Assembly: GCA_038063915.1 (NCBI GenBank)
Contig: JBBTUE010000004.1
Coordinates: forward strand, 102,719-166,718
Length of the DNA stretch: 64,000 nt
Direction: 5' to 3'
From: Patescibacteria group bacterium
GTDB taxonomy: Bacteria; Patescibacteriota; Minisyncoccia; Phycocordibacterales; UBA9973
Under the pieces are notes generated by a model that did not search any database, had not been told where the DNA came from, and saw only the letters and a program-made list of their open reading frames with translations. Made by a program: the position numbers and the translations under genes. The first letter of the stretch is position 1. Every line of letters begins with the position of its first letter. Shown one piece after another: positions 6,950 to 57,916 of this stretch.

Positions 6950-9900
6950 ATGGCTGGGAAAGAAGACAATAATAAATCGGAAGTAGCGCTCCGCGAGGAG
7001 CGGGTTTTGGAGTTTTGGCAGGAGAATAATACTTTTCAAAAAACTTTAGAAAAAGATTCACCAAAAGGCGAGTTCGTTTTTTACGAAGGCCCTCCGACTG
7101 CCAATGGTAAACCAGGAATTCATCACCTCGAAGCCAGAGCTTTCAAGGATGCAATTCCAAGATATAAAACCATGCGTGGATATCATGTACGTCGTAAAGG
7201 TGGCTGGGATACTCATGGGCTACCCGTAGAACTCCAAGTGGAAAAGAAGCTTGAATTAAACTCCAAGAAAGCTATTGAAGAGTATGGTATAGCAGAGTTC
7301 AATAAACAGTGCAAGGAAAGTGTCTGGGAATATTTAGATATTTGGAATAAATTTACCAAGCGTATAGGTTACTGGGTGGACCAAGAGAATCCATATGTTA
7401 CTTATCATAATGATTATATAGAATCTGTCTGGAATGTTCTTGCCCAAGTAGAAGATAGGAAACTTCTATATAAAGATTACAAAGTAGTGCCATGGTGCCC
7501 GCGCTGTGGTACAGCCCTTTCTTCCCACGAACTTGCGCAAGGATACCAAGATGATAAAGATTTGTCGGTAACTGCAAAGTTTAAAATAAAAGGCGTTGTT
7601 GATGGTTATTTTTTGGCTTGGACTACAACTCCATGGACACTAGCAGGCAATGTTGCTCTTGCGGTTGGAAGTGAGATTATCTATGTTGAGGCAAAAGTTG
7701 GGCCGGAGGTTTTAGTTTTAGCAAAGGATAGGCTTTCTATAATTACTGATCCATATGAAATAGTGGCAGAACACAAAGGTAGTGAAATGGTTGGTATGGA
7801 ATACGAGCCACTTTATCCATATCTGTCTACTCTTGATGTGGGAGATGAAAAATTAAAAAATGCATATAAAGTTTATCCGGCAGATTTCGTAAATACTACA
7901 GATGGTACTGGTATTGTGCATACAGCAGTCATGTATGGTCAGGATGACTTTGAGCTCGGTACAAAAATTGGTCTGCCAAAGTTCCACACAGTCGATGATA
8001 GTGGTCACTTTGTAAAAGGCACTGGTTTCTTGGAAGGAAGATTTGTTAAGGATGAAGAAGTCGCAGTTGATATTATCAAAGATCTGGCACACAGAGGCCT
8101 TTTATTTAAGAAAGAAAAATATGAACACTCATATCCTCACTGTTGGCGCTGTAAAACTGCGCTCATATACTATGCTCGTGATTCTTGGTATATCAGAATG
8201 TCTGATCCGAGTGTGAAAGATAAACTAATAGCTGAAAATAAAGAAATAAATTGGGAGCCACCACATATTCGCGATGGGCGCTTTGGAGAGTGGCTCAAAG
8301 ATATAAAAGATTGGGCAATATCTCGTGAGAGATATTGGGGGACGCCGCTACCTATATGGCAGAAAGCCGACGGTAGTAATATTGTAGTAGATTCGATTGA
8401 TACACTTAAAAAATACATCAAAAAAAGTGGTAACAGTTACTTCATCATGCGTCATGGTGGGACAGAAGGTAATTTAGAGGAGCTCGTGAGCTATAAACAT
8501 CAAGAGACTGACAATTTAACTGAAAATGGTAAAGAGCAAGTACGCGTATCTGCAGATAAATTAAAAGATCATAATATAGATATAGTAATATATTCTCCTT
8601 TTACTCGCACTACCGAGACTGCTACGATTGTAAAAGAAGTGCTTGGTCTTGGTAGTGAGCAGGTAATGCCCGACGCACGACTAATAGAAATAAACCCAGG
8701 GATATATGATGGTAAGAATTGGAGTGAATATCACGAGCATTTATATAATATGGAGCGTGGATGGTTTGTAAGGAAAATTCCTGAAGGAGAATCCCTACAA
8801 GATGTCACCGAAAGGTCAGGAGCAGTACTTTATGATCTCGAGGCTAAGTATTCTGGTAAGAATATTCTAATTATTACTCATGGTGGCCCTGCATGGGCTA
8901 TGTATGTCGCTTCTGGTATTTATGAGAAGCGTAATACTGAATATAAAAAAGCAGACACCCATGTATTTGTGAAAGAATTCAAACAATTTGGTAATGCTGA
9001 AGTAAGAGAACTACCATTCGTACCACTACCCCATGATAAACACAATATTTTAGATTTACATAAGCCATATATAGATGAAGTAGAGCTTTTTGACGAAGAA
9101 AGCCGCCCAATGACTCGAGTCAAAGAAGTCATGGATGTATGGTTCGACTCTGGGGCCATGCCCTTCGCGCAAGATCACTATCCGTTCGAAAATAAAGAAT
9201 GGGTGGATACTAAAGGATTCCCCGCCGACTATATTTGTGAAGCGATAGATCAGACTCGTGGATGGTTCTATACTTTGCACGCGATAGGCGTACTCACAGG
9301 TAGAGGCAAAGCCTTTAAAAATGTCATCTGCCTTGGACATATCTTAGATAAAGATGGGAAGAAAATGTCCAAGTCTGTCGGCAACGTCGTCGACCCATGG
9401 GAAATGATGGATAAATACGGAGTAGATACATTACGCCTATGGATGTATAGCGTGAATCAGCCCGGTGAATCAAAGAACTTTGACGAGAAGACAGTTTCCG
9501 AGCTCAACAACAAAGTATTTAATTTATTTTATAATGTACTCGCATTCTACGAACTATATAGAGACAAATCCATTGAAGATAGGGAATATAAAAAGTCAGA
9601 TAATATTCTTGATCAATGGATAATTGCCCGGCTAAACAAGCTCGTCTTAGATATGACGAATAGTATGGATAATTATAAACTTTTAGAACCAGTAAGAGGT
9701 ATACGCGAATTTGTCGATGAGCTTTCTACATGGTATGTCCGTCGCTCACGTGAGCGGATTAAGGACGGGGATGTAGATGTGAAGCAGACTCTGTACTTCG
9801 TATTAAAAACGTTTTCAAAAATTTTAGCTCCATTTGCACCGTTTGCAGCTGAAGACATATGGCAGAAGTTAAAAAATACTTCTGATGCAGAGAGTGTGCA

Positions 9901-10414
9901 CCTAGCAGAATGGCCAGAAGGAGGAAAAGTTAACGAGGATTTGATTTCTGAAATGCAAATTGTACGACACGTAGTGACTCTTGGACTTGAAGCGAGACAA
10001 AAAGCAAATATCAAAGTTCGTCAGCCACTAAGTGAACTAAAAGTCAAGAGCTATCAACTAAAAGATGAGTATATAGAGATTATTAAAGATGAGCTAAATA
10101 TAAAAGCTGTCGTCTACGATGACTCTATTGAGAATCCAGTCGAACTCGATTCTCATATAACTCTAGATCTAAAAAAAGAAGGTCAATATCGTGAACTTGT
10201 TCGTGCTATTCAAGATATGCGCAAGAAGGAGGGGTTAAACCCAAATGATGTCATTGTTCTTACCATTGCTACTAATACCGAAGGTCAAGAAATCGTAAAT
10301 AAATGGAAAAGTGAACTCATGAAAATAGCTGGAGCTAAAGAGGTTAATATTGCCGATAATCAAGGCACTGAAGTTAAGATTGACGAATTAACATTCCTAG
10401 TCAGTTTTTCATAG
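6950..10414 (+). CDS. ileS: isoleucyl-tRNA synthetase (type 2, Thermus/eukaryote-like) with inserted histidine-phosphatase domain
   Basis: PPTANGKPGIHH, GWDTHGLPVE, ISRERYWGTPLPIW, HKPYIDEVEL, DVWFDSGAMPFAQ, KMSKSVGN. Collinear with T. thermophilus IleRS except for a ~200-aa insert. Confidence 0.9.
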   Translation: MAGKEDNNKSEVALREERVLEFWQENNTFQKTLEKDSPKGEFVFYEGPPTANGKPGIHHLEARAFKDAIPRYKTMRGYHVRRKGGWDTHGLPVELQVEKKLELNSKKAIEEYGIAEFNKQCKESVWEYLDIWNKFTKRIGYWVDQENPYVTYHNDYIESVWNVLAQVEDRKLLYKDYKVVPWCPRCGTALSSHELAQGYQDDKDLSVTAKFKIKGVVDGYFLAWTTTPWTLAGNVALAVGSEIIYVEAKVGPEVLVLAKDRLSIITDPYEIVAEHKGSEMVGMEYEPLYPYLSTLDVGDEKLKNAYKVYPADFVNTTDGTGIVHTAVMYGQDDFELGTKIGLPKFHTVDDSGHFVKGTGFLEGRFVKDEEVAVDIIKDLAHRGLLFKKEKYEHSYPHCWRCKTALIYYARDSWYIRMSDPSVKDKLIAENKEINWEPPHIRDGRFGEWLKDIKDWAISRERYWGTPLPIWQKADGSNIVVDSIDTLKKYIKKSGNSYFIMRHGGTEGNLEELVSYKHQETDNLTENGKEQVRVSADKLKDHNIDIVIYSPFTRTTETATIVKEVLGLGSEQVMPDARLIEINPGIYDGKNWSEYHEHLYNMERGWFVRKIPEGESLQDVTERSGAVLYDLEAKYSGKNILIITHGGPAWAMYVASGIYEKRNTEYKKADTHVFVKEFKQFGNAEVRELPFVPLPHDKHNILDLHKPYIDEVELFDEESRPMTRVKEVMDVWFDSGAMPFAQDHYPFENKEWVDTKGFPADYICEAIDQTRGWFYTLHAIGVLTGRGKAFKNVICLGHILDKDGKKMSKSVGNVVDPWEMMDKYGVDTLRLWMYSVNQPGESKNFDEKTVSELNNKVFNLFYNVLAFYELYRDKSIEDREYKKSDNILDQWIIARLNKLVLDMTNSMDNYKLLEPVRGIREFVDELSTWYVRRSRERIKDGDVDVKQTLYFVLKTFSKILAPFAPFAAEDIWQKLKNTSDAESVHLAEWPEGGKVNEDLISEMQIVRHVVTLGLEARQKANIKVRQPLSELKVKSYQLKDEYIEIIKDELNIKAVVYDDSIENPVELDSHITLDLKKEGQYRELVRAIQDMRKKEGLNPNDVIVLTIATNTEGQEIVNKWKSELMKIAGAKEVNIADNQGTEVKIDELTFLVSFS
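8426..9049 (+). other. in-frame histidine phosphatase (phosphoglycerate-mutase-like) domain inserted in IleS
   Basis: RHG motif (FIMRHGGTEGN), LTENGKEQV, DIVIYSPFTRTTETA, FPEGES-like KIPEGESLQDV, ILIITHGGPAWAM. Sits between IleS segments ...PLPIWQKADGSNIVVDSIDTLKKY and LDLHKPYIDEVEL, which are ~8 aa apart in T. thermophilus IleRS. Confidence 0.7.
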
Positions 10415-53986: not shown

Positions 53987-54616
53987 ATGAGCAAAAGTAG
54001 GAAAAGAAACTTGTTTTTCGACTTGGATGGTATGAAGTTTAATACTCTACCAGCCCATGTGGCCTATGTGAACCATCGCTATGGAATAAATACTTTACCT
54101 GAAGAATATATAGGGAAAAATGATAGCTTTGATTCTGTAATAAAGAGACATGCCACTGATGTCACCCTAACTTGGGAGGGAATATACAAAGACCTCGGAG
54201 AGAATTTCCACTCATCAGTAGAGTGGCATAAGGATGTGAAGCCGATGGAGGATATGTGTGAAGTAGTTCCACTGCTTTCAAAAAAATATAACCTCTACAC
54301 CGTAACTGCACGGCAAAAAAATGGGCAACACGTTGTCCAATATCTATTGGACAAGTATATACCGAACTGTATAAGGGATATACATTGTAGTTGGGACTAT
54401 ATTCCCGGGGTAGGGTTCGTCGAAGTTCAAAAAAAGGATTTTATCCAAAAGACGGAAGGAGAAAATGTTGCATTTTTTGATGACTCACTCAAGGAAGTCA
54501 AAAGGGCCCAGAATGTAATCACTTCTCATCTATTTGATCCTAATAGTTCCTATAAAGATATCAATGGCATGAATCGTATTGAAAGCTGGAAACGGATTGG
54601 GGAACTGTATCTTTAA
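53987..54616 (+). CDS. HAD-superfamily hydrolase, 5'(3')-deoxyribonucleotidase (NT5C)-like
   Basis: N-terminal LFFDLDGMKFNT (DxDG motif I), C-terminal FFDDSLKEV (motif IV-like), NT5C-like length. Confidence 0.5.
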   Translation: MSKSRKRNLFFDLDGMKFNTLPAHVAYVNHRYGINTLPEEYIGKNDSFDSVIKRHATDVTLTWEGIYKDLGENFHSSVEWHKDVKPMEDMCEVVPLLSKKYNLYTVTARQKNGQHVVQYLLDKYIPNCIRDIHCSWDYIPGVGFVEVQKKDFIQKTEGENVAFFDDSLKEVKRAQNVITSHLFDPNSSYKDINGMNRIESWKRIGELYL

Positions 54617-55808: not shown

Positions 55809-56357
55809 CTAATCCAGCTGATATTCCCATCCCGGTTGCCAAGATCTTGTTTTGCGCCAATCTTCCGCTAGAGCTTGTTTCCAGGTCTTGCCTTTAAGTA
55901 GGACATCTAGTGAGAGCTGTGGGGCCTTGTGACCAACTAAGGCAACATGTTTGCCGTCGTAATTATTTTTTAAAAATTCTAGGAAATCTGCAATACGTAC
56001 CTTTACATCTTCATAACTTTCTCCTTCAGGAAATTTATTATAAATACATTCATCCTCTTGCATTGGTTCTACAATAGCAGAAGGCGCGGCATTTAGTTTT
56101 CCATAGTTACATTCTCTTAATCTTGAATCAGGAATGATTGGGTAGACTCCATCCCAAGCTAATTTTGCTGACTTGGTTGCACGTTGTAAATCTGAGCAGA
56201 ATACGACATTAAATTTCTTATCTTTAGTCTGGTCTTTTAATTCAATAGATTGCTTTACCCCTAAGTCTGAAAGATCGACATCGGACCATCCCGATGAGAT
56301 TTCCTTTTCATTATCTGTTGTCGTACCGTGGACAAAATACGTGATATAGACTGACAT
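55809..56357 (-). CDS. histidine phosphatase (phosphoglycerate-mutase-like) family protein
   Basis: YFVHGTTTDNE (RHG-like, with Arg replaced by Val), SDLQRATKSAKLA, KFPEGESYEDV, ALVGHKAPQ. Closely parallels the domain inserted in IleS. Confidence 0.6.
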   Translation of the reverse strand: MSVYITYFVHGTTTDNEKEISSGWSDVDLSDLGVKQSIELKDQTKDKKFNVVFCSDLQRATKSAKLAWDGVYPIIPDSRLRECNYGKLNAAPSAIVEPMQEDECIYNKFPEGESYEDVKVRIADFLEFLKNNYDGKHVALVGHKAPQLSLDVLLKGKTWKQALAEDWRKTRSWQPGWEYQLD

Positions 56358-56433
56358 AAAATGATTATATCATGAGGCTTAATTTCCTACTGCATTGTAA
56401 TTTATCTATTTTTAGTGTATTTTAAAGATGTAT

Positions 56434-56504
56434 TTGGGGATCGTCTAATGGTAGGACAGTGGCCTTTGAAGCCATTAATTGGGGTTCGAATCCCTGTCCC
56501 CAAG
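56434..56504 (+). tRNA. tRNA-Gln (anticodon TTG)
   Basis: ttgggga-tc-gtc taatggtag gac a gtggc ctttgaa gccat taat tgggg ttcgaat ccctg tccccaa g; 3-bp D-stem as in bacterial tRNA-Gln. Confidence 0.8.
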
Positions 56505-56506
56505 CA

Positions 56507-56911
56507 ATGGAAACTAAAACTAGAATTGGTGGAATAATTATTCAAGATGGAAAACTTCTTATGTTATTAGGCAAGGGTTATAAAGAACTGTGGACCCCAG
56601 GAGGCAAAATTGATGAAGGTGAAAGTGATGAAGAGTGCCTAAGGAGGGAACTTCAAGAGGAGTTGGGTGTTTCGCTTGTAGAAGCAAAATTTTTCAAAGA
56701 ATATATCGGTCCATCTTTTTATAATCCAGATAAGCACATAACTAAACAGAGAATATATATTATAAAAATAGAAGGCACCATTACTCCTGCAATGGAAATT
56801 GAAAGTTATATATGGTTCACCAAAAAAGATTTTGTAAATAAAAAATACCCCATGATTACTATGACAGAGAAAGAATTAATCCCAGATGTCATAAAGGCTG
56901 GAATTTGGTAA
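56507..56911 (+). CDS. NUDIX hydrolase
   Basis: Nudix box GGKIDEGESDEECLRRELQEELGV. The ORF-track start at 56459 overlaps the tRNA; the ATG at 56507 (METKTRIGG) lies 2 nt past the tRNA 3' end. Confidence 0.75.
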   Translation: METKTRIGGIIIQDGKLLMLLGKGYKELWTPGGKIDEGESDEECLRRELQEELGVSLVEAKFFKEYIGPSFYNPDKHITKQRIYIIKIEGTITPAMEIESYIWFTKKDFVNKKYPMITMTEKELIPDVIKAGIW

Positions 56912-57442: not shown

Positions 57443-57916
57443 GTGCATATTATGAAAAAGACATTTACAATACTTTCAATATTTATCATTTTGATAGGAG
57501 TTGGGCTATTGTCCTACCCAAAGTCTTCATCTGCTGATTGGGGCTTCGGCATCAGTATAGGAGGAGGCTATGCTGGCTATAATAACTATGGTGGTGGATA
57601 CGGCAATCAATACTACGGTGGTGGCTATGGGGGCAATTATGGAGGCTACGGAGGAGGTTATAACAACATGTATCCAACTATGGGCTACTATGGCAATACA
57701 TATGGTGGTGGAGGATACGGTGGCTATGGATACCCAGTAAATAATAATTATGGCAATAATGGCTACAATGCTGGCTACGGATATACGAATACAAACTACG
57801 GCTATCCTTATGCCGGAAATATTTCCCCAACATATGGCAATTACTACGGAGGCCAAGGATTTGGCAATAATTACGGATATAGTAACTACGGCAACGGCCC
57901 ATCTTGGACTCACTAA
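57443..57916 (+). CDS. secreted Gly/Tyr/Asn-rich low-complexity protein
   Basis: Signal peptide (MKKTFTILSIFIILIGVGLLS), then ~120 aa of GGYG/NYG/GYGY repeats. Confidence 0.55.
   Translation: MHIMKKTFTILSIFIILIGVGLLSYPKSSSADWGFGISIGGGYAGYNNYGGGYGNQYYGGGYGGNYGGYGGGYNNMYPTMGYYGNTYGGGGYGGYGYPVNNNYGNNGYNAGYGYTNTNYGYPYAGNISPTYGNYYGGQGFGNNYGYSNYGNGPSWTH

What the first reader, a model, noticed from the sequence alone, without database searches (positions are those of the whole stretch)
55809..56357. Standalone histidine-phosphatase paralog of the IleS insert, with Arg of RHG replaced
The 182-aa protein parallels the IleS insert motif by motif and in the same order. YFVHGTTTDNE matches FIMRHGGTEGN. 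SDLQRATKSAKLA matches SPFTRTTETATIV. KFPEGESYEDVKVRIADFLEFLKNNYDGKHVALVGHKAPQ matches KIPEGESLQDVTERSGAVLYDLEAKYSGKNILIITHGGPAWA. Inference: the IleS insert probably derives from duplication of a gene like this one (or the reverse). The standalone copy has Val in place of the catalytic-motif Arg, so it may have different or lost activity.
Basis: seen in the sequence. Interest (0 to 1): 0.55.

Follow-up and report, generated by a model that had tools for sequence, protein, structure and literature searches.

The report
Conserved arginine-less histidine phosphatase gene
This small gene is real, but it is not a decayed copy of the phosphatase domain inside the isoleucyl-tRNA synthetase: it belongs to a separate, very strongly conserved and uncharacterised phosphatase family of ultra-small bacteria and archaea that always lacks one "essential" arginine and is itself found spliced into other housekeeping proteins elsewhere.

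Summary
ORF 55809-56357(-) encodes a 182-aa His_Phos_1 protein, and Val sits where the Arg of RHG should be. It aligns motif by motif with the His_Phos_1 insert of IleS (29% identity).

The similarity is generic superfamily similarity. With an IleS-insert profile, free-standing RHG-type CPR phosphatases score 85-121 bits and this protein scores 44, rank 188 of 357. In 200 NJ bootstraps the insert never groups with this protein's family.

The Val is not decay. The protein belongs to a large family in which the Arg is never present (0 of 89 domains, against 83 of 83 in RHG comparators). H10, N16, R59, E82 and H143 are 96-100% conserved. Relatives are 64-90% identical across many CPR classes and DPANN archaea, while fourfold synonymous sites are saturated. 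That indicates old, intense purifying selection.

Unexpectedly, domains of this same family (46-56% identical) are inserted into ValRS in the same loop that carries the window's IleS insert. They are also found elsewhere in an IleRS, and fused to FtsY, HD, Nudix and serine-hydrolase domains.

Most likely this is an active, non-canonical phosphatase. Its substrate is unknown; context leans weakly towards nucleotide metabolism.

The parts
55809..56357 (-). CDS of the 182-aa Arg-less (V-H-G) branch-1 histidine phosphatase. The end coordinate range includes the stop codon.
   Evidence: ORF. Pfam His_Phos_1, 94 bits. Homologues of 80-90% identity and the same length and start. AF2 model with pLDDT 95.3 and pTM 0.90.
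56328..56333 (-). Codons for Val9-His10. His10 is the predicted phospho-accepting nucleophile. Val9 occupies the place of the Arg of RHG.
   Evidence: Alignments to Pfam and PDB. Position 9 is R in 0 of 89 family domains and in 83 of 83 RHG comparators. H10 is 98% conserved. Coordinates.
56181..56183 (-). Codon for Arg59 (motif SDLxRA), the retained phosphate-pocket arginine.
   Evidence: 98% conserved in the family and 100% in RHG comparators.
56112..56114 (-). Codon for Glu82 (motif RLRECNYG), the predicted general acid.
   Evidence: 100% conserved in the family.
55929..55931 (-). Codon for His143 (motif GHKAPQ), the second pocket histidine.
   Evidence: 96% conserved in the family and 99% in comparators.
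56358..56433 (-). 76-bp upstream region between the start codon and the tRNA-Gln gene. It holds a TATAAT hexamer at 56369-56364, 6 nt before the ATG, and no obvious Shine-Dalgarno sequence.
   Evidence: Read directly from the sequence. The consensus scan gave only a weak promoter-like site at 56447-56419, not above shuffle expectation. Function is not shown.
8432..9046 (+). Comparator: the RHG-type His_Phos_1 domain inserted in IleS (aa 495-699). It lies between WGTPLPIW...KKSG and ILDLHKPYID.
   Evidence: It belongs to a different subfamily from the standalone gene.
56507..56911 (+). Context: a divergently oriented Nudix hydrolase gene. The domain type recurs as a neighbour or fusion partner of this family.
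   Evidence: Pfam NUDIX. Nudix genes lie next to the family gene in 5 of 132 immediate neighbours and in 7 of 80 loci within 4 kb. P0154 is a direct fusion.
53987..54616 (+). Context: an NT5C-like (HAD) 5'-(deoxy)nucleotidase gene about 1.2 kb away.
   Evidence: Pfam NT5C, 28.6 bits against a cutoff of 24.8. It was not found next to the family gene in other genomes.

Best explanation
The gene encodes an intact, functional member of a distinct Arg-less subfamily of branch-1 histidine phosphatases. The family signature is x-H-[GSA]-T-T-x-D-N-E ... SDLxRA ... RLRECNYG ... (G/A)H(K/R/Q)AxQ ... DWR..K.WxPGWxY. The subfamily is centred on CPR bacteria and DPANN archaea and has evolved under very strong purifying selection.

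It most likely still works as a phosphoryl-transfer enzyme by the standard superfamily mechanism. His10 attacks the phosphate and forms a phospho-histidine intermediate. Glu82 acts as general acid/base. Asn16, Arg59 and His143 hold the phosphate. The pocket carries one positive charge fewer, because Val9 replaces Arg. Family-specific acidic residues (Asp15, Glu17, Asp56) lie in the sequence next to pocket residues. This implies a substrate specificity different from the PhoE, CobC, PspA and dPGM enzymes.

Shown here: family membership, absence of the Arg across the family, retention of the rest of the catalytic set, the fold, the selection pattern, and independence from the IleS insert. The insert derives from a different, RHG-type group of free-standing CPR phosphatases.

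Inferred: that the protein is catalytically active. Weakly inferred: that it acts on a small nucleotide-related phosphoester in salvage or house-cleaning, alongside the Nudix, HD, cytidine-deaminase, CYTH and serine-hydrolase genes with which it is recurrently adjacent or fused.
For: - Fold and family: Pfam His_Phos_1 at 94 bits. The AF2 model has pLDDT 95.3. The best Foldseek matches are PspA 4ij5 (TM 0.79), PhoE 1h2e, HFP 9mmh and CobC.
- The Arg-less state is a family trait. All 120 closest homologues have FVHG or YVHG. Among the 150 cluster representatives the position is V 77, T 19, A 11, S 9, I 3, P 3, F 1 and never R. In curated domain sets R is 0 of 89 against 83 of 83.
- Catalytic set retained: H10 0.98, N16 0.98, R59 0.98, E82 1.00, R121 0.93, H143 0.96.
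- Selection: relatives in 80 genomes are 64-90% identical in protein. Identity at fourfold sites is only 0.13-0.49, which is saturated. Other proteins shared with the same genomes are 30-57% identical, and ClpB is 73%.
- Family size and spread: 6139 hits. There are 575 50%-identity clusters at E<=1e-10. Many CPR classes are represented, plus Nano-, Woese- and Pacearchaeota. One archaeal contig is confirmed by a neighbouring Taw1 gene.
- Independence from the IleS insert.
- Context: Nudix, dCMP/cytidine deaminase, Ser_hydrolase, HD, CYTH, NDK and DHH occur as neighbours. HD, HD_3, Nudix and alpha/beta-hydrolase occur as fusions.
Against: - No member has been assayed or solved. A family profile finds only canonical RHG proteins in the PDB.
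- From my recollection of published work on fructose-2,6-bisphosphatase and dPGM, the RHG arginine binds the phospho group and its mutation strongly impairs catalysis. No family-specific basic residue that could replace it was evident from the conservation analysis.
- Gene neighbourhood is not conserved. There is no synteny with the window in any of 80 loci, and the commonest immediate neighbour (Nudix) reaches only 5 of 132. The substrate inference is therefore weak.
- 64-90% identity across phyla and domains is unusually high for a small-molecule phosphatase. It could instead indicate a macromolecular partner.
Confidence: 0.72

Rival explanations
1. The gene and the IleS insert are a duplicate pair, one derived from the other, and the standalone copy has lost the catalytic Arg and is decaying or has lost activity.
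For: Both are His_Phos_1 domains in one genome and are collinear in motifs, with 29% identity and E=2e-14. They are the only two His_Phos_1 domains in the window.
Against: - Their similarity equals or falls below that to unrelated PDB proteins.
- The standalone ranks 177 of 337, and the insert 31 of 75, in reciprocal BLASTP backgrounds.
- The insert profile scores free-standing RHG CPR proteins at 85-121 bits against 44 for this protein.
- Bootstrap support for any grouping with the VHG family is 0 of 200.
- The insert lacks every family-specific motif.
- The Arg-less state is ancient and selected, not decay.
Confidence: 0.03
2. Pseudo-enzyme or binding module. Without the RHG arginine the domain no longer turns over substrate. 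It acts instead as a phospho-ligand sensor or a protein/RNA-interaction module, which is why it is so conserved and why it is grafted onto ValRS, IleRS and FtsY.
For: - The pocket arginine is lost.
- Sequence conservation is exceptional and more typical of macromolecular interfaces.
- The domain is inserted in or fused to non-metabolic housekeeping proteins: ValRS five times, IleRS, FtsY seven times plus L061.
Against: The nucleophile His10, the general acid Glu82, Asn16, Arg59 and His143 are all kept at 96-100%. A mere binding module would not need the Glu and both His residues. The domain is also fused to bona fide small-molecule hydrolase domains: HD_3, Nudix and alpha/beta hydrolase.
Confidence: 0.15
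3. It is the cofactor-dependent phosphoglycerate mutase of CPR/DPANN lower glycolysis, as some database records name it. The extreme conservation would then reflect a central metabolic role.
For: - One source names a close homologue 'Phosphoglycerate mutase [Candidatus Magasanikbacteria]'.
- Conservation is high.
- In one Woesearchaeota locus a PGK gene lies about 0.9 kb away.
Against: - All NCBIfam dPGM models score far below cutoff, for example TIGR01258 at 29.3 against 81.7 and PRK14115 at 28.6 against 305.
- The protein is 182 aa and matches the short PhoE/CobC/PspA-type structures better than the 230-250-aa dPGMs, which align with RMSD around 5 A.
- It lacks the Arg that helps hold the phospho groups.
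- Fusion partners (aaRS, FtsY, HD, Nudix) are not glycolytic.
- PGK adjacency was seen once in 80 loci.
Confidence: 0.07

Closest known systems
PhoE/YhfR broad-specificity phosphatase of Geobacillus stearothermophilus (PDB 1H2E/1EBB), COG0406
   Same: Same fold and size class. TM 0.77 and 99.7 bits to the family profile. Same order of motifs, and the catalytic His, second Arg, Glu and second His are all shared.
   Different: PhoE has the canonical RHG arginine. It lacks the family-specific DNE, SDL, RLRECNYG, APQ and C-terminal WxPGWxY motifs. Sequence identity is only about 22%.
Metal-independent phosphoserine phosphatase PspA/iPSP1 of Hydrogenobacter thermophilus (PDB 4IJ5)
   Same: It is the best structural match (E=9e-15, TM 0.79) and the best profile match (101.6 bits).
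   Different: The NCBIfam PspA model scores 46.9 bits against a cutoff of 350, so the window protein is not a member. PspA has RHA. 4IJ5 is also the best PDB match of the IleS insert (45.7 bits), so the likeness is generic.
Alpha-ribazole-5'-phosphate phosphatase CobC (TIGR03162; PDB 6NRU, 6E4B, TTHB049)
   Same: It is the best NCBIfam hit for both the standalone protein (68.5 bits) and the insert (82.9 bits). It is a short single-domain phosphatase acting on a nucleotide-like substrate.
   Different: The score is far below the cutoff of 162.9. CobC has RHG. Cobalamin synthesis is not expected in these reduced genomes; this last point is my own background knowledge, not tested here.
Free-standing RHG-type His_Phos_1 proteins of CPR of about 190 aa (e.g. 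P0276, P0280 Pacebacteria, P0285 Staskawiczbacteria)
   Same: Same superfamily, same host phyla and similar length.
   Different: These, and not the window's gene, are the closest free-standing relatives of the IleS insert: 36-41% identity and 103-110 bits, with a shared C-terminal G/N-x-E-[VL]-R-E-[LI] strand. They keep the RHG arginine.
Idiosyncratic inserted domains of class Ia aminoacyl-tRNA synthetases, e.g. the leucine-specific domain of LeuRS (recalled from the literature, not tested here)
   Same: A folded extra domain sits in the catalytic core between the conserved WGxxIPxW motif and the D-x-W-F-x-S-G motif, before KMSKS.
   Different: Here the inserted module is a complete enzyme domain of the histidine-phosphatase superfamily. 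I found no paper describing that.

Membership tests
Histidine phosphatase superfamily, branch 1 (Pfam PF00300 His_Phos_1) | Significant match to the family profile above the curated cutoff | tested here: met
   94 bits against a cutoff of 21.7, E=1.2e-26.
Histidine phosphatase superfamily, branch 1 (Pfam PF00300 His_Phos_1) | Alpha/beta fold of the superfamily | tested here: met
   The AF2 model has pLDDT 95.3. 285 PDB matches have E<=0.001; all 50 listed are His_Phos_1 enzymes, with TM up to 0.80.
Histidine phosphatase superfamily, branch 1 (Pfam PF00300 His_Phos_1) | Catalytic His of the N-terminal RHG motif | tested here: met
   His10 aligns with the nucleophile and is 98% conserved in the family.
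Histidine phosphatase superfamily, branch 1 (Pfam PF00300 His_Phos_1) | Arg of the RHG motif (phosphate pocket) | tested here: not met
   Val9 in the window protein. R occurs in 0 of 89 family domains and in 83 of 83 RHG comparators.
Histidine phosphatase superfamily, branch 1 (Pfam PF00300 His_Phos_1) | Second pocket Arg, second His, and acidic proton donor | tested here: met
   Arg59 0.98, His143 0.96 and Glu82 1.00 conserved.
Histidine phosphatase superfamily, branch 1 (Pfam PF00300 His_Phos_1) | Phosphatase or mutase activity through a phospho-histidine intermediate | not testable with these tools
   Needs an enzyme assay.
The subfamily of the IleS His_Phos_1 insert (window IleS, P0121, P0122, P0273-P0275) | Scores with the insert profile at least as well as the insert's free-standing relatives, and groups with the inserts in a tree | tested here: not met
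   44.1 bits, rank 188 of 357, against 85-121 bits for RHG CPR proteins. The group nearest the inserts contains a VHG-family member in 0 of 200 bootstraps.
2,3-bisphosphoglycerate-dependent phosphoglycerate mutase (TIGR01258 and PRK equivalogs) | Score above the curated cutoff | tested here: not met
   29.3 against 81.7. Equivalog models score 24-35 bits against cutoffs of 305-421.
Alpha-ribazole phosphatase CobC (TIGR03162) | Score above the curated cutoff | tested here: not met
   68.5 against 162.9.
Phosphoserine phosphatase PspA (NF045917) | Score above the curated cutoff | tested here: not met
   46.9 against 350.
Anti-phage defence or phage-borne gene | Match to PADLOC models, or presence on viral contigs | tested here: not met
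   No PADLOC hit. No relative in IMG/VR. Only a generic PHROG of unknown function at 60 bits.

The most novel reading that the evidence does not exclude
Histidine-phosphatase domains have been grafted at least twice independently into the same catalytic-core loop of class Ia aminoacyl-tRNA synthetases in CPR bacteria. The loop lies between WGxxIPxW and DxWFxSG. The Arg-less family of this gene went into ValRS, and an RHG-type family went into the window's IleRS. The Arg-less domain is additionally inserted elsewhere in an IleRS and fused to FtsY in DPANN archaea.

If this recurrence is functional rather than mere structural tolerance, the ultra-conserved Arg-less phosphatase acts on a component of the translation or targeting machinery. 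Candidates are a phosphorylated tRNA 3' end, a nucleotide by-product of aminoacylation, or a GTPase/alarmone ligand. The free-standing gene in this window would then be the trans-acting form of a previously unrecognised translation-associated phosphatase.
Probability: 0.2. Interest if true: 0.8.

Novelty: new variant of a known kind. Interest (0 to 1): 0.5.

Why it matters
For the finding as written, the result is deflationary. The gene is not the source or a decayed twin of the IleS insert.

What replaces it is more useful. This is a large, uncharacterised clade of histidine phosphatases that has dispensed with a residue regarded as part of the catalytic core. Yet it is among the most conserved proteins shared by CPR bacteria and DPANN archaea, being more conserved than ClpB in the same genome pairs.

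That combination marks it as an important unknown in the biology of ultra-small symbionts. It is also a natural experiment on how the His-phosphatase pocket works without its first arginine.

The same domain has been inserted into ValRS and IleRS and fused to FtsY, Nudix, HD and serine-hydrolase modules. This gives concrete, testable leads to its function. It also shows that synthetase-embedded phosphatases in CPR are a recurrent phenomenon with at least two independent origins.

Tried and rejected
- Other His_Phos_1 paralogues in the window: none found.
- Recent horizontal transfer as the cause of the 80-90% identities: rejected, because fourfold sites are saturated. Some older CPR-DPANN transfer is still needed to explain 64-77% identity across domains.
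- Conserved operon: rejected. There is no synteny with the window in 80 loci, and the commonest immediate neighbour family reaches only 5 of 132.
- Phage or defence origin: no viral relatives and no PADLOC hit.
- A solved structure of an Arg-less member: none. The family profile hits only canonical RHG proteins.
- Literature on aaRS-embedded histidine phosphatases or Arg-less His_Phos_1 families: five full-text searches and one paper found nothing relevant. The Rigden 2008 review was not available.
- A compensating family-specific basic residue was looked for in the conservation tables. Only R79 and R81 of RLRE are more conserved than in comparators, and K144 is variable. This is inconclusive without coordinates, because the structure tool returns no atomic model.
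- The first bootstrap attempt with Biopython timed out and was redone with a numpy NJ.
- P0195, a GroEL fragment joined to a partial domain, is treated as a possible assembly or gene-call chimera and is not used as evidence.

Full report
**1. The observation**

IleS is the 1154-aa ORF 6950..10414(+).

Pfam assigns His_Phos_1 to both. The standalone protein scores 94 bits (E=1.2e-26). IleS residues 498-653 score 109.7 bits, flanked on both sides by tRNA-synt_1 segments.

Pairwise BLASTP gives 29% identity over 163 columns, 55.8 bits, E=2e-14. Val9 occupies the position of the Arg of RHG, and His10 aligns with the nucleophile. A phmmer scan of the six-frame translation finds no third His_Phos_1 region in the window.

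**2. Is the likeness more than superfamily likeness?**

It is not. That is what I find.

- By phmmer, standalone against IleS scores 35.5 bits and insert against standalone scores 39.1 bits.
- The standalone scores 36.9 bits with an unrelated PDB phosphatase, 9mmh. The insert scores 45.7 bits with Hydrogenobacter PspA, 4ij5.
- A profile of the three IleS inserts then known (alignment A1) retrieved three more IleS fragments with the same insert: P0273, P0274 and P0275, at 44-56% identity.
- The same profile then retrieved about twenty free-standing RHG-type proteins of about 190 aa from CPR bacteria (Pacebacteria, Staskawiczbacteria and others). They score 85-121 bits.
- With that profile the window's standalone protein scores 44.1 bits, rank 188 of 357.
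- By BLASTP the insert matches those free-standing RHG proteins at 36-41% identity and 103-110 bits. It matches the standalone at 29% and 56 bits, rank 177 of 337.
- Reciprocally, the insert is only the 31st best of 75 RHG proteins for the standalone.

I also ran a neighbour-joining analysis of 172 domains over 174 columns with 200 bootstraps.

- The standalone's family is monophyletic in 198 replicates.
- The IleS inserts are monophyletic in 177 replicates.
- The group nearest the inserts is made only of RHG-type proteins in 200 replicates, and only of CPR free-standing ones in 123.
- That nearest group contains a member of the standalone's family in 0 replicates.

The free-standing RHG proteins also share with the insert a C-terminal strand: KGELRELN or TGEVREI against NAEVRELPF. 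The likely donor of the IleS insert is therefore that RHG group, not a gene like 55809-56357.

**3. What the gene is**

The protein has more than 6000 database relatives. The best 120 are all 80-90% identical, 178-270 aa long (most 180-183 aa), and from Patescibacteria where named. Every one has F/Y-V-H-G.

A word-index-free search of 1.84 billion cluster representatives found 5029 relatives at E<=0.001 and 575 at E<=1e-10. Among the best 150, the RHG-Arg position is V 77, T 19, A 11, S 9, I 3, P 3, F 1 and never R.

In curated near-full-length domain sets, R is 0 of 89 in this family against 83 of 83 in RHG comparators. The rest of the catalytic apparatus is kept: H10 0.98, N16 0.98, R59 0.98, E82 1.00, R121 0.93, H143 0.96.

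Family-specific conserved residues include D15, E17, S30, D56, R79/R81, Y85, W177 and Y179. The window's IleS insert has none of the family motifs. It reads RHGGTEGN, SPFTRT, RLIEINPG and THGGPA.

More distant Arg-less members of the E-T-H type come from Actinomycetes and Acidobacteria.

AlphaFold2 gives a confident model with pLDDT 95.3 and pTM 0.90. Its best PDB neighbours are the short phosphatases PspA, PhoE, HFP, CobC and GpgP, at TM 0.75-0.80. No solved structure belongs to the Arg-less family, because the family profile finds only canonical RHG chains. All NCBIfam equivalog models, including dPGM, CobC and PspA, score far below their cutoffs.

**4. Selection and distribution**

A scan of one genome per GTDB species returned 80 loci with 63-90% identity. 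They come from Minisyncoccia and from Nomura-, Zambryskii-, Moranii-, Komeili-, Ryan-, Sungii-, Uhr-, Doudna-, Falkow- and Shapirobacteria. They also come from Saccharimonadales and from DPANN archaea: Nano-, Woese- and Pacearchaeota. One Woesearchaeota contig is confirmed archaeal by a neighbouring wyosine (Taw1) gene.

At fourfold-degenerate sites of conserved residues, identity to the window gene is 0.13-0.49. It is only 0.35 even for the 90%-identical protein. These sites are saturated. The protein identity therefore reflects long-standing purifying selection, not recent transfer. The 64-77% identity across domains still implies some past CPR-DPANN exchange.

For calibration, other proteins shared between the window and the same loci are 30-57% identical. 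ClpB is 73%, where this protein is 83%.

The gene is absent from IMG/VR viral contigs and from PADLOC.

**5. The unexpected part**

Among the cluster representatives, many are long proteins in which this same Arg-less domain (46-56% identical to the window protein) is embedded.

- Five are class I synthetases: P0129, P0138 and P0136 are ValRS by their C-terminal arm, and P0168 and P0137 are ValRS-like.
- One is an IleRS (P0139).
- Seven are FtsY proteins (P0127, P0130, P0131, P0143, P0146, P0148, P0156).
- Two are fusions with HD or HD_3 domains (P0126, P0141).
- One is a fusion with Nudix (P0154) and one with an alpha/beta hydrolase (P0192).
- In genome L061 a Woesearchaeota ORF carries Ser_hydrolase + this domain + FtsY.

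In the ValRS proteins the domain sits directly after SRQxW(W/F)GHRIP(V/A)W (SRQIWWGISIPVWY in P0137) and before DPD(T/V)LDTWFSS(G/S); P0138 reads DEDTLDTWFSSG. The window's IleS insert lies in the homologous inter-motif loop. It follows SRERYWGTPLPIW plus 24 residues, and precedes ILDLHKPYID...MDVWFDSG.

So two different His_Phos_1 subfamilies have entered the same loop of two class Ia synthetases. In IleRS P0139 the Arg-less domain is elsewhere, ahead of the anticodon-binding domain, and a Ser_hydrolase domain is inserted as well.

P0129 lies on a 61.7-kb Patescibacteria contig. Its ValRS gene is preceded by DHH, HD, NUDIX, DUF5698 and Ser_hydrolase genes.

**6. Context of the free-standing gene**

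There is no conserved operon. No neighbour of the window gene recurs.

The gene usually sits in tight co-directional arrays of small genes: 110 of 132 immediate neighbours are on the same strand. A Pfam census of those neighbours gives NUDIX 5, dCMP/cytidine deaminase 4, alpha/beta or Ser_hydrolase 3-4, Peptidase_S51 3, Y1 transposase 3 and CYTH 2.

Seed searches within 4 kb add HD (3 loci), DHH (2), NDK (5), and Ser_hydrolase directly abutting in 4 loci.

In the window the gene is flanked by tRNA-Gln and a divergent Nudix gene, and an NT5C-like nucleotidase lies 1.2 kb away. The pattern leans towards nucleotide salvage or house-cleaning but is statistically weak.

**7. Mechanism**

*Shown:* the fold, the retained His/Asn/Arg/Glu/His set, the missing first Arg, and the selection pattern.

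*Inferred:* the protein is an active phosphoryl-transfer enzyme using His10 as nucleophile and Glu82 as acid. Its pocket has one cationic ligand fewer, and extra acidic residues lie close in sequence. This points to a specificity different from known relatives, perhaps for a substrate carrying a positive or less negative group. The nucleotide-related substrate is a weak inference from neighbours and fusions.

*Rivals:*
- A non-catalytic binding or interaction module. The loss of Arg, the extreme conservation, and the grafting onto ValRS, IleRS and FtsY fit this. Retention of the nucleophile and the acid argues against it.
- A phosphoglycerate mutase. The database name fits, but model scores, size, structure and partners argue against it.

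**8. Comparison with the known**

The protein works like a PhoE/CobC/PspA-type short histidine phosphatase and is a member of Pfam His_Phos_1. It fails one textbook defining feature of the superfamily, the RHG arginine, as does its whole clade. It is not a member of any curated equivalog family.

I found no paper on this clade or on phosphatase domains embedded in synthetases. Absence from the searchable library is not proof of absence.

**9. Verdict**

The duplication link and the decay model are refuted.

The gene is a new variant of a known kind, a member of an uncharacterised, ultra-conserved, Arg-less histidine-phosphatase clade of CPR/DPANN. Interest is moderate (0.5). It is low for the claim as made. 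It is raised by the conservation, the non-canonical active site, and the recurrent embedding of the domain in translation and targeting proteins.

Noticed in passing
window 56434-56505 (+): A tRNA-Gln(UUG) gene lies between the phosphatase gene and the Nudix gene. The mechanically listed Nudix ORF start (GTG 56459) overlaps it, so the real Nudix start is probably ATG 56507.
   Followed up: partly
window 8432-9046 (+), within IleS 6950-10414: The RHG-type His_Phos_1 insert in IleS is rare. Only five other sequences with it were found among 5.8 billion proteins (P0121, P0122, P0273, P0274, P0275; 44-76% identical), and all are IleS fragments. Its closest free-standing relatives are RHG proteins of about 190 aa from Pacebacteria and Staskawiczbacteria.
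   Followed up: yes
L082 1-20416 (GCA_034680565.1): This contig is syntenic with the window around ArgRS-IleS. Its IleS is called as three ORFs (404, 315 and 442 aa), so it may be frameshifted or mis-assembled. It is surrounded by CYTH, thymidylate kinase, dUTPase, Ser_hydrolase, HAD and HD genes.
   Followed up: no
L061 3059-5497 (+) (Candidatus Woesearchaeota RIFOXYD1_FULL_40_14): A single 812-aa ORF combines Ser_hydrolase, the Arg-less His_Phos_1 domain (72% identical to the window protein) and a complete FtsY (SRP54_N + GTPase). The neighbouring Taw1/wyosine gene confirms an archaeal contig.
   Followed up: partly
L081 2512-9180 (Patescibacteria GCA_028712155.1): A ValRS with an embedded Arg-less phosphatase domain is preceded by a run of small hydrolase genes: DHH, HD, NUDIX, DUF5698 and Ser_hydrolase. 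These are the same domain types that occur fused to the phosphatase domain elsewhere.
   Followed up: partly
P0138 (ValRS, 1232 aa), residues ~643-800: After the phosphatase domain this ValRS carries a further insert of about 140-150 aa with no Pfam match, before the DEDTLDTWFSSG motif.
   Followed up: no
L007 and L017 (Candidatus Zambryskiibacteriota nzgw494): One genome carries two copies of the free-standing gene on different contigs, 82% and 80% identical to the window protein.
   Followed up: no
window 56507-56911 (+): The Nudix protein next to the phosphatase gene matches the PADLOC candidate defence model PDC-S07 (51 bits, E=2e-14). This may simply reflect the Nudix fold.
   Followed up: no
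window 57443-57916 (+): This ORF encodes a 157-aa protein with an N-terminal hydrophobic segment followed by an extreme Gly/Tyr/Asn-rich low-complexity region (GGYGNQYYGGGYGGNYGGYGGGYNN...). It has no Pfam match.
   Followed up: no
P0195 (426 aa, ENA contig of 14.8 kb): GroEL residues 1-302 are followed by a partial Arg-less phosphatase domain that starts at family position about 52. This could be an assembly or gene-calling chimera rather than a real fusion.
   Followed up: no
window 56364-56369 (-): A perfect TATAAT hexamer lies 6 nt upstream of the phosphatase start codon, with no Shine-Dalgarno-like sequence. This would fit a leaderless transcript. It was not flagged by the consensus scan, because no -35 element matches.
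   Followed up: no
L078 5417-6634 (-) (Woesearchaeota): A phosphoglycerate kinase gene lies about 0.9 kb downstream of the phosphatase gene. This is the only glycolytic neighbour seen in 80 loci.
   Followed up: no
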